Source: Escherichia coli (lineage in GTDB: Bacteria; Pseudomonadota; Gammaproteobacteria; Enterobacterales; Enterobacteriaceae). From it: DNA of 64,000 nucleotides. Each line of letters starts with the position of its first letter. The first letter of the stretch is position 1. The position numbers and the translations under genes were made by a program. Positions 2 through 7,458 of the stretch are shown piece by piece. The DNA lies in assembly GCF_016903815.1 (NCBI RefSeq), contig NZ_CP069973.1; one strand, written 5' to 3'. The notes under the pieces are model-generated. The model searched no databases. It was given only the letters and a program-made list of their open reading frames with translations, and was not told where the DNA came from.

Positions 2-3000
2 TGCTCGGTGTGTCCGGGCAGGATGACTTCGGGCAACCCGGTAAATCCGCTGCTGGGGGCGAAGGTGCTGCCCGGCGAGACGGACCTTGCGCTGCCCGGC
101 CCGCTGCCGTTCATTCTCTCCCGCACCTACAGCAGCTACCGGACGAAGACGCCTGCGCCGGTGGGGATTTTTGGCCCCGGCTGGAAAGCGCCTTCTGATA
201 TCCGCTTACAGATACGCGATGATGCACTGGTACTCAACGACAACGGCGGACGGAGCATTCACTTTGAGCCGCTGCTGCCGGGGGGGGCGGTGTACAGCCG
301 CAGCGAGTCAATGTGGCTGGTTCGCGGTGGTAAGGCAGCGCAGCCGGACGGCCACACGCTGGCACGGCTGTGGGCGTCGCTGCCGCCGGATATCCGGTTA
401 AGCCCGCATCTTTACCTGGCGACCAACAGCGCACAGGGACCGTGGTGGATACTGGGGTGGTCAGAGCGGGTGCCGGGCACTGAGGACGTACTGCCAGCGC
501 CGCTGCCGCCGTACCGGGTGCTTACCGGGCTGGCGGACCGCTTCGGGCAGACGCTGACGTACCGGCGTGAGGCCGCCGGTGACCTGGCCGGGGAAATCAC
601 CGGCGTGACGGACGGTGCCGGGCGGGAGTTCCGTCTGGTGCTGACCACACAGGCGCAGCGTGCGGAAGAGGCCCGCACCTCTTCGCTATCTTCTTCTGAC
701 CGTTCCCGCCCTCTCTCAGCCTCAGCGTTCCCCGACACACTGCCCGGTACGGAATACGGCCCCGACAGGGGTATCCGCCTTTCGGCGGTGTGGCTGATGC
801 ACGACCCGGCATACCCGGAGAATCTGCCCGGTGCGCCACTGGTGCGGTACACGTATACGGAAGCCGGTGAACTGCTGGCGGTATATGACCGCAGCGGGAC
901 ACAGGTGCGCGCTTTCACGTATGACCCGCAGCACCCGGGCCGGATGGTGGGGCACCGTTATGCGGGAAGGCCGGAGATGCGCTACCGCTACGACGATGCG
1001 GGGCGGGTGGTGGAGCAGCTGAACCCGGCAGGCCTGAGTTACCGCTACCAGTATGAGCAGGACCGCATCACCGTCACCGACAGCCTGAACCGGCGAGAGG
1101 TGCTGCATACAGAAGGCGGGGCCGGGCTGAAGCGGGTGGTGAAAAAAGAACTGGCGGACGGCAGCGTCACGCACAGCGGGTATGACGCGGCAGGAAGGCT
1201 CACGGCGCAGACGGACGCGGCGGGACGGCGGACAGAGTACGGTCTGAATGTGGTGTCAGGCGACATCACGGACATCACCACGCCGGACGGGCGGGAGACG
1301 AAATTTTACTATAACGACGGGAACCGGCTGACGGCGGTGGTGTACCCGGACGGGCTGGAGAGCCGCCGGGCGTATGATGAGCGGGACAGGCTGGTATCGG
1401 AGACATCGCGCAGCGGGGAGACAGTACGCTACCGCTACGATGACGCGCACAGTGAGTTACCGGCGACGACAACGGATGCGACGGGCAGCACCCGGCAGAT
1501 GACGTGGAGCCGCTACGGGCAGTTGCTGGCGTTCACTGACTGCTCGGGCTACCAGACCCGTTATGAATACGACCGCTTCGGCCAGATGACGGCGGTTCAC
1601 CGCGAGGAAGGTATCAGCCGTTACCGCCGCTATGACAACCGTGGCCGGTTAACCTCGGTGAAAGACGCACAGGGCCGTGAAACGCGGTATGAATACAACG
1701 CCGCAGGCGACCTGACTGCCGTTATCACCCCGGACGGCAACCGGAGCGAGACACAGTACGATGCGTGGGGAAAGGCGGTCAGCACCACACAGGGCGGGCT
1801 GACGCGCAGTATGGAGTATGACGCGGCAGGACGTGTCATCAGCCTGACCAACGAGAACGGCAGTCACAGCGACTTCAGCTACGATGCGCTGGACCGGCTG
1901 GTACAGCAGCGCGGCTTTGACGGGCGGACGCAACGTTACCACTATGACCTGACCGGAAAACTCACGCAGAGTGAAGATGAGGGGCTTGTCACCCTCTGGC
2001 ACTACGACGAATCGGACCGTATCACTCACCGCACGGTGAACGGCGAACCGGCAGAACAGTGGCGGTATGATGGCCACGGCTGGCTGAGAGAAATCAGCCA
2101 CCTGAGCGAAGGCCACCGTGTTGCCGTCCACTATGGCTATGACGATAAGGGCCGTCTGACCGGGGAGCGCCAGACGGTGGAGAACCCGGAGACGGGGGAA
2201 CTGCTGTGGCAGCATGAGACGAAACAGGCATACAACGAACAGGGGCTGGCAAACCGCGTCACGCCGGACAGCCTGCCGCCGGTGGAGTGGCTGACCTACG
2301 GTAGCGGTTATCTGGCGGGCATGAAGCTGGGCGACACGCCGCTGCTGGAGTACGCGCGCGACCGCCTGCACAGAGAAACGGTGCGCAGCTTTGGCAGCAT
2401 GGCAGGCAGTAATGCCGCATACGAACTGACCAGCACATACACCCCTGCAGGCCAGTTACAGAGCCAGCACCTGAACAGCCTGGTGTATGACCGTGACTAC
2501 GGGTGGAATGACAACGGCGACCTTGTGCGCATCAGCGGCCCGCGACAGACGCGGGAATACGGCTACAGTGCCACGGGCAGGCTGGCGAGTGTACGCACCC
2601 TCGCACCGGACCTGGACATCCGCATCCCGTATGCCACGGACCCGGCGGGCAACCGGCTGCAGGACCCGGAGCTGCACCCGGACAGTACACTCACGGCGTG
2701 GCCGGATAACCGCATCGCGGAGGATGCGCACTATGTCTACCGCCACGATGAATACGGCAGGCTGACGGAGAAGACGGACCGCATCCCGGCGGGTGTGATA
2801 CGGACGGACGACGAGCGGACCCACCACTACCACTACGACAGCCAGCACCGCCTGGAGTTCTACACGCGGATACAGCATGGCGAGCCACTGGTCGAGAGCC
2901 GCTACCTCTACGACCCGCTGGGACGGCGAATGGCGAAACGGGTATGGCGGCGGGAGCGTGACCTGACGGGGTGGATGTCGCTGTCGCGTAAACCGGAGGT

Positions 3001-4024
3001 GACGTGGTACGGCTGGGACGGCGACCACCTGACGACGGTGCAGACCGACAGCACACGTATCCAGACGGTATACGAGCCGGGAAGCTTCACACCGCTCATC
3101 CGCATCGAAACAGACAACGGCGAGCGGGAGAAAACGCAGCGGCGGAGCCTGGCGGAGAAGCTCCAGCAGGAAGGGAGCGAGGACGGACACGGCGTGGTGT
3201 TCCCGGCTGAACTGGTACGGCTGCTGGACAGACTGGAGGGGGAAATCCGGGCAGACCGCGTGAGCAGTGAAAGCCGCCAGTGGCTGGCACAGTGCGGGCT
3301 GACGGTGGAGCGGCTGGCGACACAGATAGAGCCGGTTTATTTACCTGAGCGAAAAATTCATCTTTACCACTGTGACCACCGGGGGCTGCCGCTGGCGCTC
3401 ATCAGCGAAGACGGCAATACGGCGTGGAGCGGGGAGTATGATGAGTGGGGAAACCTGCTGAATGAGGAAAACCCGCATCACCTGCACCAGCCGTACCGTC
3501 TGCCAGGGCAGCAACACGATGAGGAGTCAGGGCTGTATTATAACCGGAACCGGTACTACAATCCGTTGCTGGGACGATATATTACTCAGGACCCGATTGG
3601 GCTGGCGGGGGGATGGAGTCTGTATGCGTATCCGCTGAATCCGGTGAATGGTATTGATCCATTAGGGTTAAGTCCTGCAGATGTAGCGTTAATGCGAAAA
3701 AAAGAACAACTAAACCATCAAAGAGCATGGGATATATTATCTGATACTTATGATGATATGAAGAGATTAAATTTAGGTGGGACTGATCAATTTTTCCATT
3801 GTATGGCATTTTGTCGAGTGTCTAAATTAAATGACGCTGGTGTTAGCCGATCAGCGAAAGGGCTGGGTTATGAAAAAGAGATTAGAGATTACGGGTTAAA
3901 TATGTTCGGTATGTACGGCAGAAAAGTAAAGTTATCCCATTCTGAGATGATTGAAGATAATAAAAAAGACTTGGCTGTAAATGAACATGGGTTGACATGT
4001 CCATTTACACAAGATTGCTGGTAA
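2..4024 (+). CDS. rhsD: Rhs family YD-repeat protein (classical RhsA-D type), 5' end outside window; core ends at the DPIGL motif (~3600) and is followed by a lower-GC C-terminal toxin tip that is truncated by IS1
   Basis: 1338-aa continuous ORF with many YD-repeat motifs (RYRYD, YEYD, YDxxGR) and the PxxxxDPxGL core boundary '[18 protein letters not shown]'; symbol is from its position upstream of mnmH as in K-12, not from the tip sequence. Confidence 0.85.
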
Positions 4025-4074: not shown

Positions 4075-4350
4075 GTGGCTTCCATTTCCATCAGATGTCC
4101 TTCCTGCTCCGCTACTGAAGGCGTGGTGCGTAACGGCAAAAGCACTGCCGGACATCAGCGCTATCTCTGCTCTCATTGCCGTAAAACATGGCAACTACAG
4201 TTCACTTACACCGCCTCTCAGCCCGGTACGCACCAGAAAATCATTGATATGGCCATGAATGGCGTCGGATGTCGCGCCAGTGCACGCATTATGGGCGTTG
4301 GCCTCAACACGGTTTTACGTCACTTAAAAAACTCAGGCCGCAGTCGGTAA
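4075..4350 (+). CDS. insA: IS1 InsA protein
   Basis: 91-aa ORF '[37 protein letters not shown]...' matches remembered IS1 InsA. Confidence 0.9.
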
Positions 4351-4772
4351 CCTCGCGCATACAACCGGGCAGTGATGTGATTGTCTGCGCTGAAATGGAC
4401 GAACAGTGGGGCTACGTCGGTGCTAAATCACGTCAGCGCTGGCTGTTTTACGCGTATGACAGGATACGGAGGACGGTTGTGGCGCACGTCTTCGGTGAAC
4501 GCACTCTGGCCACACTGGAGCGTCTTCTGAGCCTGCTGTCGGCCTTTGAGGTCGTGGTATGGATGACGGATGGCTGGCCGCTGTATGAATCACGCCTGAA
4601 GGGAAAGCTGCACGTTATCAGCAAGCGTTACACTCAGCGCATTGAGCGACATAATCTGAATCTGAGACAACATCTGGCAAGGCTGGGACGGAAGTCACTG
4701 TCGTTCTCAAAATCGGTGGAGCTGCATGACAAGGTCATCGGGCATTATCTGAACATAAAACACTATCAGTAA
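4269..4772 (+). CDS. insB: IS1 InsB (transposase reading frame, normally expressed as InsAB' by -1 frameshift)
   Basis: 167-aa ORF overlapping insA in a different frame, ending '...[12 protein letters not shown]'. Confidence 0.85.
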
Positions 4773-4855
4773 GTTGGAGTCATTACCAGATTGCTCAAAT
4801 AGATGTATTGATTATATTAATCCAGAGCATAAAAAAACGATAAAGGCTTTACAAG

Positions 4856-5347
4856 ATGCTGGCTATCTCAAGTAACATCTCAAAGATGGTAATATTTATT
4901 TTTGCTATTATAATCGTTGTTTTTTTATGCGTGACTACTTATCTTTATTTACACAAAGATGAATCTCTTGTAAGTAAGCATTACATAAACTATATGGCAA
5001 TACCAGAAAGTGATGGGGTTTTTACATGGCTCCCAGATTTTTTTCCGCATGTAGCGGTGGATATATCAATATCCACAAATGTAGAAGATGATTATTTTTT
5101 TTCTTATTTTTCCCTAACAATCGATGATGGGGGGAGGTTTAAGAAAACATTGACGGTGAGGGCCAGGGAACAAGTGGCGAAAATCGTATCAGAGAATGAT
5201 CCAGATACAAAAAAAGTGTGGTGTAAATATGGTAAAATACCAGGGCAAGGGGATAGCGTAAACCTTTTTTTTGTTGGTGAAATTAATGTTACGCATTATT
5301 TTATAACAAATATTGGAGCTGGATTGCCTGATGCTTGTGCAGAGTAA
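4856..5347 (+). CDS. Hypothetical protein with N-terminal hydrophobic helix; putative immunity protein for the upstream Rhs toxin tip (alternative start at 4886)
   Basis: ORF directly downstream of the Rhs toxin tip, low GC; its start overlaps the reconstructed pre-IS1 end of the Rhs ORF (stop at 4873-4875); function inferred from position only. Confidence 0.45.
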   Translation: MLAISSNISKMVIFIFAIIIVVFLCVTTYLYLHKDESLVSKHYINYMAIPESDGVFTWLPDFFPHVAVDISISTNVEDDYFFSYFSLTIDDGGRFKKTLTVRAREQVAKIVSENDPDTKKVWCKYGKIPGQGDSVNLFFVGEINVTHYFITNIGAGLPDACAE

Positions 5348-5631
5348 TTGCTTGAATTAAGAGTCTATCCCATATCGAAGTCGTCAACTTCGTAGTGAGG
5401 AAAAGTAAAATCCCTGACTGAGAAAAGACATGTCGGCTATTGTGTAAAGCCATATAGCTCAGACGATGAATATCTACTCGTATTCAGTTGTTTATTGAGG
5501 GTGAGTTCCGACCCTGAAACAACAAATAAAATGAATAGTCAGAGAGTTTACATAGAATTGCACTAGTCTTTTACGATATCTGACATTGTGTAATACATAT
5601 TCAGCCATGCATTAATTAAAATGTTTCGTGT

Positions 5632-6269
5632 TTAATGTGAGTCCCTATCTGAAAATAAATAATCCTTCCGGATTAAAATAAATTCTCGCCGGGAAAGAAA
5701 GAGGAAATAAACCATTAGCGGAAAACCAGCGGCACGCCAGGGTGACATGCCCCAGTACGGCGGCCCGATAGTCCAGGGTTCAGCGGGGGTACTGATAGTC
5801 GCGCCGACTGCATCGAGAACTCCATACAACTTTTTACGGAACGTCACCTGATAAAATTTGTTCAGTATCGTCTTTTGAGATTCTCAAGGTTATGGAGTAA
5901 CCAGACAGAACGGACACCACTGTCGGAGATAAAAACCCCCTGTTTACGCAGCTCGTTGCTGGCCCGGTGCTGACCATGTGTCGGGAAAGCGACGGTGTAA
6001 TCAACAACAGCCTGTTCAGTTGCCTCATCGGTACGGTTCTTAAGGTTAGGAGCGCGGCGACTACGATTAATCTGCACATCCACACCGCCTTCAGCGGCCA
6101 GTTCGCGGTAACGATAAAACGTTTCACGCGAAACGCCCATGATTTTACAGGCTTTTGATACGTTGCTGAGTTCTTCAGCCAGATTGAGCAAACCGGCTTT
6201 GTGTTTGATGACGGGATTGGCAGTATGAAGCATGAGAGTTACCTCTTGTTTTGGATAAGGATTCGACAC
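5632..6269 (-). pseudogene. Truncated transposase remnant (N-terminal helix-turn-helix region followed by frame-disrupted fragment); family uncertain, possibly IS481-like
   Basis: 135-aa ORF (5862..6269) with HTH-like 'SKACKIMGVSRETFYRYRELAAEGG', then a 71-aa ORF in another frame (5632..5847); no full-length transposase or inverted repeats found. Confidence 0.45.
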
Positions 6270-6348
6270 TCATATCAAAACCGGTAACTCTCAACCTTTC
6301 AAGGCCATGTGTCAGATCAAGTCGCGACTAATACAAATACGTCCCTCA

Positions 6349-7458
<1,110 letters not shown>

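What the first reader, a model, noticed from the sequence alone, without database searches (positions are those of the whole stretch)
5632..6269. Degenerate transposase remnant between the Rhs region and mnmH
A 135-aa ORF with an HTH-like N-terminus followed by frame-disrupted sequence and no catalytic domain or inverted repeats. This is a fossil IS marking an old rearrangement boundary of the Rhs element.
Basis: inference. Interest (0 to 1): 0.2.

Follow-up and report, generated by a model that had tools for sequence, protein, structure and literature searches.

The report
Dead IS481-family insertion sequence (ylbG)
This is ylbG, an annotated E. coli gene relic: the broken remains of a jumping gene of the IS481 family, wedged between mnmH and a stub of an Rhs toxin gene. 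It is ordinary and almost certainly has no function.

Summary
The finding is real and correctly interpreted in outline, but its anatomy needs correcting. The window is the E. coli rhsD–mnmH–allS region, and the ORF is ylbG (K-12 b0502), which NCBI's PGAP annotation pipeline calls an incomplete HTH protein.

- **What survives.** The relic spans window 5809–6335 on the minus strand, not 5632–6269.
  - IS nt 1–467 (window 6335–5869) is 95% identical to an intact 1201-bp IS481-family element. It carries the left inverted repeat at 6311–6335, 13 bp from the mnmH stop, an RBS-sequestering hairpin, and transposase codons 1–122 (HTH only).
  - IS nt 931–999 (window 5877–5809) lies out of frame.
- **What is lost.** The DDE core (aa 123–276), IS nt 1000–1201 and the right inverted repeat.
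- **Right-hand junction.** The break is fused to the first 95 nt of an Rhs core ORF (ylbI, 5714–5808, plus strand).
- **Mixed origin.** The two surviving pieces match different IS lineages: 95% vs 85% for the 5′ part, 81% vs 94% for the 3′ piece.
- **No selection.** Changes on the ylbG branch are 10 nonsynonymous to 1 synonymous, so the protein is not being maintained.
- **Distribution.** About half of 5426 complete E. coli genomes carry the same relic, and none has a full copy at this site.

Already known; low interest.

The parts
6311..6335 (-). Left terminal inverted repeat (IRL) of the IS481-family element, TGTATTAGTCGCGACTTGATCTGAC. The outer end at 6335 lies 13 bp downstream of the mnmH stop codon.
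   Evidence: Aligns with nt 1–25 of the intact IS copies. The pattern search finds this single site in the window, 0 expected by chance.
6228..6298 (-). 5′ UTR stem-loop. The arms GAGAGTTACC and GGTAACTCTC pair so that the Shine-Dalgarno sequence (AAGAGG) is closed off and the stem abuts ATG 6233.
   Evidence: Inverted repeat I1 and the MFE fold. Both arms are invariant in five IS copies down to 72% overall identity. Its regulatory role is inferred.
5862..6233 (-). ylbG ORF: 123 aa from the ATG (135 aa if the upstream GTG at 6269 is used). It corresponds to transposase codons 1–122 (HTH_29/HTH_32 only), then 'Y' and a stop created by the frameshifting deletion.
   Evidence: PGAP and K-12 annotation.
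5869..5877 (-). Internal deletion junction. IS nt ~467 is joined to nt ~931 at the imperfect microhomology CAnAAnACG. This removes ~464 bp (aa 123–276, the whole rve/DDE core) and shifts the frame.
   Evidence: The two blastn segments overlap here. Junction sequences were compared with both IS variants.
5809..5877 (-). Surviving 3′ piece, IS nt 931–999 (aa 277–299, TILNKFYQVTFRKKLYGVLDA), out of frame with ylbG. It comes from a different IS481-family lineage than the 5′ part.
   Evidence: 81% identical to variant A (L002) but 94% (65/69) to variant B (L011), whereas the 5′ part is 95% to A and 85% to B. Fisher p = 1e-4.
5714..5808 (+). ylbI: the first 95 nt (~32 codons, ISGKPAARQGDMPQYGGPIVQGSAGV…) of an Rhs core ORF with the start ATG mutated to ATT. 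It points into the IS relic. The 5808/5809 junction removed the rest of that Rhs gene together with IS nt 1000–1201 and the right IR.
   Evidence: 79% identical to nt 1–95 of the RhsD core ORF. It matches the starts of RHS core genes in other genomes. K-12 annotates it as pseudogene ylbI.
5632..5847 (-). It is a spurious chimera of 13 IS-derived codons followed by the antisense of ylbI and its upstream spacer.
   Evidence: No Pfam or NCBIfam hit. Composition established.
6336..6348 (.). 13-bp spacer between the IS end and the mnmH stop codon (TGA at 6349–6351, minus strand). Homology with island-free genomes ends at ~6342.

Best explanation
The feature is ylbG, the immobile and non-functional relic of a 1.2-kb IS481-family insertion sequence.

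**The parent element (shown from intact relatives).** It carried a single 346-aa transposase with an N-terminal winged HTH and a C-terminal rve/DDE core. It had ~26-bp terminal inverted repeats starting TGTATTAG and made 7-bp target duplications.

**How the relic arose (inferred order).**
1. A copy came to lie 13 bp downstream of mnmH, in the same orientation as mnmH.
2. A microhomology-mediated deletion joined IS nt ~467 to nt ~931. This may have happened inside one mosaic element or between two neighbouring copies of different lineages. It removed all three catalytic residues and shifted the frame.
3. A second illegitimate junction fused IS nt 999 to codon ~32 of an oppositely oriented Rhs core gene. 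This deleted the right inverted repeat and the rest of that Rhs gene.

**Present state.**
- With no DDE domain and only one end, the relic cannot transpose (established knowledge of DDE transposition).
- The remaining HTH-only ORF is still open but is drifting neutrally.
- Any read-through transcript from mnmH would meet the retained 5′ hairpin that hides the ribosome-binding site. Little or no protein is therefore expected (inferred).
- The relic is inherited vertically, and by flanking homologous recombination, as the edge of the RhsD island.
For: **Identity and family**
- The locus is 100% identical to loci annotated ylbG ('HTH domain-containing protein, incomplete') beside mnmH, and 99.2% identical to K-12, where b0502 sits at the same place.
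- HTH_29 scores 4e-18. The IS481 equivalog model matches its positions 2–112 only, at 85.9 bits against a cutoff of 224.
- An intact relative scores 288.6 bits and has rve at aa 162–267.

**Anatomy**
- IS nt 1–467 maps to window 6335–5869 (95%), and IS nt 931–999 maps to 5877–5809.
- The left IR is unique in the window and there is no right IR.
- 7-bp target duplications flank three intact copies: AATAAGG, GCTAATG and ACTGACT.
- The Rhs 5′ fragment abuts the break.

**No selection on the protein**
- The ylbG branch carries 10 nonsynonymous changes to 1 synonymous, against 25:45 between intact copies (Fisher p = 7e-4).
- All 4 differences between the window allele and the K-12/B alleles within the ORF are nonsynonymous.

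**Population**
- 2747 of 5426 complete genomes carry the whole relic at ≥98.9% identity with the same breakpoints.
- Some strains have further truncations.
- About 2000 genomes lack it entirely and hold other cargo or an empty REP spacer at the site.
- No genome has a full IS beside mnmH.
Against: - The 123-codon ORF is still uninterrupted in every allele examined, and RefSeq for K-12 lists it as a CDS, 'putative DNA-binding transcriptional regulator YlbG'. A residual DNA-binding role is therefore not formally excluded.
- With only ~12 substitutions, the N:S test cannot separate neutrality from weak or positive selection.
- No expression data were examined.
- The order of the two deletion events, and whether one or two IS copies were involved, is inferred rather than shown.
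Confidence: 0.9

Rival explanations
1. Domesticated HTH protein. The truncated transposase N-terminus (YlbG) is expressed and binds DNA, for example the inverted repeats of incoming IS481-family elements. It would then act as a trans-inhibitor of transposition or as a host regulator, in the way truncated transposase derivatives of other ISs do.
For: - The ORF is open, with a good Shine-Dalgarno sequence and ATG, and has a complete HTH_29 domain.
- K-12 RefSeq annotates it as a putative DNA-binding regulator.
- About 51% of E. coli genomes carry it, while active copies of the IS family occur in only ~63 of 5426 genomes.
Against: - The N:S ratio of 10:1 on its branch includes changes at residues invariant in the intact transposases compared, such as A53V, L54Q, A85T, T91A and R113L.
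- All 4 within-species differences are nonsynonymous.
- PGAP treats it as a pseudogene.
- It is absent from ~40% of genomes and further truncated in others.
- No sigma-70-like promoter was found in 5300–6600, and the RBS lies inside a stem.
Confidence: 0.06
2. Cis-acting co-option. The retained IS left end, 13 bp after the mnmH stop, now serves as the 3′ UTR, stabiliser or terminator of the mnmH transcript. Alternatively it encodes an antisense small RNA (the Rfam psRNA2-like signal).
For: - The IS end replaces the REP-containing spacer that follows mnmH in island-free strains.
- A conserved stem-loop lies 50–120 nt after the stop codon.
- A sub-threshold psRNA2 match lies on the antisense strand at 6236–6407.
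Against: - No intrinsic-terminator-like site was found near the mnmH end.
- The fold is not significantly more stable than shuffled sequence (z = −1.5).
- psRNA2 scores 30.9 bits against a gathering score of 65. The same weak hit appears at the left end of intact IS copies elsewhere, so it reflects IS sequence rather than a locus-specific RNA.
Confidence: 0.03
3. Not IS-derived: a chance or host HTH ORF.
For: None beyond the absence of a catalytic domain.
Against: - 95% nucleotide identity over 467 nt to intact IS481-family elements, including the terminal inverted repeat and 5′ UTR.
- NCBIfam IS481 model, E = 3e-24.
Confidence: 0.01

Closest known systems
ylbG (b0502) of E. coli K-12 MG1655, with neighbouring pseudogene ylbI (b4632)
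   Same: Same locus. It lies between ylbI and mnmH/selU, is 99.2% identical over 749 bp, and has the same breakpoints and the same 123-aa ORF.
   Different: - Four nonsynonymous differences in the ORF.
- This strain also has an IS1 after the Rhs core and an intact ybbD-like ORF.
Intact IS481-family insertion sequences of Enterobacteriaceae plasmids and chromosomes (e.g. CP056609.1 nt 83365–84565, 'variant A'; NZ_OY856300.1, 'variant B')
   Same: - Left inverted repeat, 5′ UTR hairpin, and codons 1–122 (95% nt identity to A).
- nt 931–999 (94% identity to B).
   Different: - The relic lacks nt ~468–930 (DDE core), nt 1000–1201 and the right IR.
- No target duplication can be identified, and it cannot transpose.
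- The ISfinder name of the parent could not be checked (no IS database among the tools).
Truncated transposase derivatives that act as transposition inhibitors (IS1 InsA, IS911 OrfA, Tn5 Inh; recalled from established literature, not tested here)
   Same: An HTH-only N-terminal transposase fragment that could in principle bind the IS ends.
   Different: - Those proteins are encoded by active elements and are under selection.
- ylbG shows a neutral substitution pattern and no evidence of expression.
Rhs-element orphan fragments (vestigial core and tip fragments downstream of rhs genes, e.g. ylbH)
   Same: The relic sits among Rhs debris and abuts a truncated Rhs core fragment.
   Different: ylbI is an N-terminal (5′) core fragment created by a deletion into an IS. 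It is not a displaced C-terminal tip.

Membership tests
IS481 family insertion sequence | Transposase reaches the curated NCBIfam NF033577 (IS481 equivalog) score | tested here: not met
   85.9 bits against a cutoff of 224, because only profile positions 2–112 of 284 are present. The intact relative scores 288.6. The relic therefore derives from the family but is not a functional member.
IS481 family insertion sequence | DDE (rve, integrase-core) catalytic domain | tested here: not met
   rve occupies aa 162–267 of the intact protein. The relic retains aa 1–122, plus aa 277–299 out of frame. There is no rve hit in the ORF.
IS481 family insertion sequence | N-terminal helix-turn-helix DNA-binding domain | tested here: met
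   HTH_29 at E = 4e-18 over the full profile 1–64. HTH_32, HTH_28 and HTH_23 give weaker hits.
IS481 family insertion sequence | Two terminal inverted repeats | tested here: not met
   The left IR is present at 6311–6335. No second copy exists anywhere in the 64-kb window.
IS481 family insertion sequence | Direct target-site duplication flanking the element | not testable with these tools
   The right end has been deleted, so no duplication can be sought. Intact relatives show 7-bp duplications.
ylbG locus of E. coli (b0502) | Synteny (ylbI – ylbG – mnmH/selU – allS) and near-identity to the K-12 sequence | tested here: met
Functional (domesticated) HTH regulator | Purifying selection on the coding sequence | tested here: not met
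   10 nonsynonymous to 1 synonymous change on the ylbG branch, against 25:45 among intact copies (p = 7e-4). All 4 within-species differences are nonsynonymous.
Rfam psRNA2 (RF02349) | Score at or above the family's gathering threshold | tested here: not met
   30.9 bits against 65. Weak hits of the same kind occur on intact IS left ends.

The most novel reading that the evidence does not exclude
YlbG, the HTH-only stump of the transposase, is still made at a low level. It would bind the inverted repeats of incoming IS481-family elements and so dampen their transposition, acting as a chromosomal 'immunity' relic. This might help explain why active copies of this IS are rare in E. coli (about 63 of 5426 genomes).
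Probability: 0.04. Interest if true: 0.4.

Novelty: already known. Interest (0 to 1): 0.08.

Why it matters
It matters little biologically, because this is an annotated relic (ylbG) present in K-12 and about half of E. coli genomes.

The value lies in tidying the annotation:
- The family is IS481.
- The left inverted repeat survives.
- The catalytic core was lost by a microhomology deletion.
- The right end was lost by fusion to a truncated Rhs core start (ylbI).
- The two surviving pieces come from different IS lineages.

This fixes the mnmH-side edge of the RhsD island. It also argues that 'putative DNA-binding transcriptional regulator YlbG' in K-12 RefSeq is better read as a pseudogene.

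Tried and rejected
- **Functional RNA.** An Rfam scan of 4700–6500 gave only a sub-threshold psRNA2 hit. It turned out to be the IS left end read antisense and recurs on intact IS copies, so it is rejected as a locus-specific sRNA.
- **Promoter and terminator scan, 5300–6600.** No sigma-70-like promoter was found. The single terminator-like hairpin, inside ylbI, is no more than shuffled sequence gives.
- **A less decayed copy at this locus.** Two chimeric queries were tried: mnmH 3′ end plus full IS variant A, and the window 5′ part plus variant B. No complete IS lies beside mnmH in any of 5426 genomes. All ≥80%-coverage hits were stand-alone IS copies elsewhere.
- **Target-site reconstruction from an empty site.** The island replaces about 127 bp of REP-containing spacer rather than being a clean insertion. 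The 6 bp next to the IS end (CGTATT) are not in the empty site, so no target duplication or original target could be recovered.
- **Domestication test.** Substitution counts show no purifying selection.
- **Literature.** Searches for ylbG, ylbI and IS481+Rhs found nothing on function. They returned only use of the ybbD–ylbG spacer as a neutral landing pad and an RpoD-binding promoter listed upstream of ylbI.
- **ylbG on 'plasmids'.** These hits turned out to be mislabelled chromosomal contigs.
- **Technical note.** Several fetched loci were not copied to the Python sandbox, so the L002 sequence was pasted by hand.

Full report
**1. What is at the coordinates**

The window is the E. coli chromosome region Rhs core – IS1 – ybbD-like ORF – ylbI – ylbG – mnmH (selU/ybbB) – allS – allA. 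This follows from the ORF content and from 100% identity to annotated genomes.

PGAP annotates the same stretch as 'ylbG: helix-turn-helix domain-containing protein, incomplete, missing C-terminus'. K-12 MG1655 lists it as b0502, ylbG, 123 aa from the ATG that corresponds to window 6233.

**2. Is it a transposase remnant?**

Yes, and well beyond chance.
- Pfam HTH_29 scores E = 4e-18, above its gathering cutoff.
- The NCBIfam IS481-transposase equivalog matches at E = 3e-24. It covers only profile positions 2–112 of 284 and scores 85.9 bits against a cutoff of 224.
- tblastn against plasmids found intact 346-aa 'IS481 family transposase' genes at 88% identity.

One intact element served as reference 'variant A': CP056609.1, locus L002 nt 2435–3635, 1201 bp. 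Its transposase passes the IS481 cutoff at 288.6 bits. It has HTH_29 at aa 11–74, rve at aa 162–267 and rve_3 at aa 256–326.

**3. Anatomy of the relic**

| Window coordinates (minus strand) | IS positions | Identity to variant A | Content |
|---|---|---|---|
| 6335–5869 | nt 1–467 | 443/467 (95%) | left IR, 5′ UTR, codons 1–122 |
| 5877–5809 | nt 931–999 | 56/69 (81%) | aa 277–299, out of frame |

These alignments come from blastn of variant A against the window. Three consequences follow.

(a) The left inverted repeat is intact at 6311–6335, with its outer end 13 bp after the mnmH stop codon (6349–6351). A degenerate IR pattern finds this one site in 64 kb, against 0 expected.

(b) About 464 bp (IS nt ~468–930, aa 123–276) are deleted. 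This removes the whole rve core and hence the catalytic residues.
- The junction at 5869–5877 lies in the imperfect microhomology CAnAAnACG.
- The deletion shifts the frame, so the ORF ends two codons later (…KRRY*).

(c) IS nt 1000–1201, including the right IR, are gone.

The 5′ UTR keeps a stem, GAGAGTTACC/GGTAACTCTC, with arms at 6283–6298 and 6228–6243. It encloses the Shine-Dalgarno sequence and abuts the ATG.
- Both arms are invariant in five copies whose overall identity falls to 72%.
- By analogy with other ISs (my own knowledge), this would block translation of read-through transcripts. That role is inferred, not shown.

**4. What the IS is broken against**

Window 5714–5808 on the plus strand is 79% identical to the first 95 nt of the RhsD core ORF.
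- It translates as ISGKPAARQGDMPQYGGPIVQGSAGV…, against MSGKPAARQGDMTQYGGPIVQGSAGV… in RhsD.
- The start codon has mutated from ATG to ATT.
- A distant-mode search shows that window 5694–5808 matches the starts of 'RHS element core protein' genes at many loci.
- K-12 annotates this fragment as pseudogene ylbI.

The relic's right-hand break (5808/5809) is therefore an illegitimate junction between IS nt 999 and codon ~32 of an Rhs gene that faced it. Microhomology there is at most 1–2 nt.

The 71-aa ORF at 5632–5847 is a chimera with no family hits.

**5. The relic is the edge of the RhsD island**

Genomes lacking ylbG hold different contents between mnmH and ybbP:
- a 140-bp REP-containing spacer in ATCC 25922;
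- a dinQ-like type I toxin insert in an O145:H28 strain;
- an Hcp/TssD–DUF2931 island in ST131.

Homology with the empty site stops at about window 6342, 7 bp from the IS end. The island replaces about 127 bp of spacer rather than being a clean insertion, so the original target and its duplication cannot be recovered.

Intact relatives have 7-bp duplications: AATAAGG, GCTAATG and ACTGACT.

**6. Two lineages in one relic**

| Piece | Mismatches vs variant A (L002) | Mismatches vs variant B (L011, NZ_OY856300.1) |
|---|---|---|
| 5′ part | 24/467 (95% identical) | 70/467 (85% identical) |
| 3′ piece | 13/69 (81% identical) | 4/69 (94% identical) |

Fisher's exact test on these counts gives p = 1e-4.
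- The 13 differences between the 3′ piece and variant A are mostly synonymous (4 amino-acid changes in 23 codons). They therefore arose in a working transposase lineage, not by decay.
- Either the parent was a mosaic IS, or the 'internal deletion' is really a deletion between two adjacent copies of different lineages.
- Variants A and B are themselves 96–98% identical at both ends but only ~80% identical in the middle. That makes a mosaic parent plausible.
- I cannot decide between these two readings.

**7. Is the HTH stump maintained?**

I polarised substitutions in codons 1–121 using the E. coli, E. albertii, Serratia and Vibrio intact copies.
- The ylbG branch carries 10 nonsynonymous changes and 1 synonymous change, plus 1 ambiguous nonsynonymous change.
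- The neutral expectation is 77% nonsynonymous. Intact copies differ by 25 nonsynonymous to 45 synonymous (Fisher p = 7e-4).
- Several changes hit residues invariant in the intact proteins compared.
- The window allele differs from the K-12 and B alleles at four ORF sites, and all four are nonsynonymous.

This is the signature of a pseudogene that has not yet acquired a stop codon.

**8. Population picture**

- The 749-bp relic plus ylbI is present at ≥98.9% identity, with identical breakpoints, in 2747 of 5426 complete genomes. These include K-12, B, O157:H7 and O55:H7.
- A few strains are further truncated.
- No genome has a complete IS beside mnmH, whichever variant supplied the missing portion of the query.
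- Stand-alone intact copies occur in about 63 genomes.

**9. Other readings**

- The psRNA2 Rfam hit is sub-threshold: 30.9 bits against a gathering score of 65, at 6236–6407 on the plus strand. It recurs on the antisense strand of intact IS left ends, so it reflects IS sequence rather than a local sRNA.
- No promoter-like site was found in 5300–6600, and no terminator-like site near the mnmH end.
- The literature holds nothing functional on ylbG. The ybbD–ylbG spacer is used as a neutral landing pad.

**10. Verdict**

The feature is the already annotated ylbG, a decayed IS481-family element fused to an Rhs core stub at the mnmH-side edge of the RhsD island. Novelty: already known. Interest: low.

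Noticed in passing
window 4075-4772: An IS1 copy (insA/insB with programmed frameshift) sits immediately after the Rhs core ORF (8–4024). It is absent from the K-12 rhsD locus, where ybbC and ylbH follow the core.
   Followed up: partly
window 4856-5347 (+): The ybbD-like ORF is intact here (163 aa; NCBIfam NF011298, E = 1.5e-112, full length). K-12 annotates ybbD as a pseudogene. Its position after Rhs tip debris suggests an orphan immunity-type gene, but this was not tested.
   Followed up: no
window ~6336-6348 and loci L005, L006, L007: The ybbP–mnmH spacer is a hypervariable site. It holds an empty REP spacer (ATCC 25922), a dinQ-like type I toxin insert (O145:H28), an Hcp/TssD + three DUF2931 gene island (ST131), or the RhsD island with ylbG.
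   Followed up: partly
window 6236-6407 (+); L002 2361-2534, L008 220-398, L010 210-398, L011 509-670 (all antisense to the transposase): The Rfam psRNA2 model (RF02349) gives consistent sub-threshold hits (29–36 bits, gathering score 65) to the left end of IS481-family elements plus whatever flanks them. The family model may have been built on an IS end. The model consensus stem (GGGUUAC/GUAACCC) differs from ours (GAGUUAC/GUAACUC) by a compensatory pair.
   Followed up: partly
window ~5381-5411 (+): TCGTCA-19-TAAAAT, listed by Shimada et al. 2014 (PMC3946193) as an RpoD-holoenzyme 'constitutive promoter' in the ybbD>ylbI spacer, is present here. Transcription from it would run through the Rhs stub and antisense into ylbG.
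   Followed up: no
L012 (NZ_CP069916.1, 'Klebsiella oxytoca plasmid unnamed5', 19 kb linear): This 'plasmid' is a colinear E. coli chromosomal fragment (ybbP–rhsD–ybbC–…–ylbG–mnmH–allS–…–glxR). It is most likely a mislabelled or contaminant contig. Two multi-megabase 'plasmids' in PLSDB that carry ylbG are likewise chromosomes.
   Followed up: partly
L002 vs L011 (intact IS variants A and B): The two intact IS481-family variants are 96–98% identical over nt 1–100 and 1001–1201 but only 78–88% identical in between. This suggests recombination or gene conversion between IS lineages at their ends.
   Followed up: no
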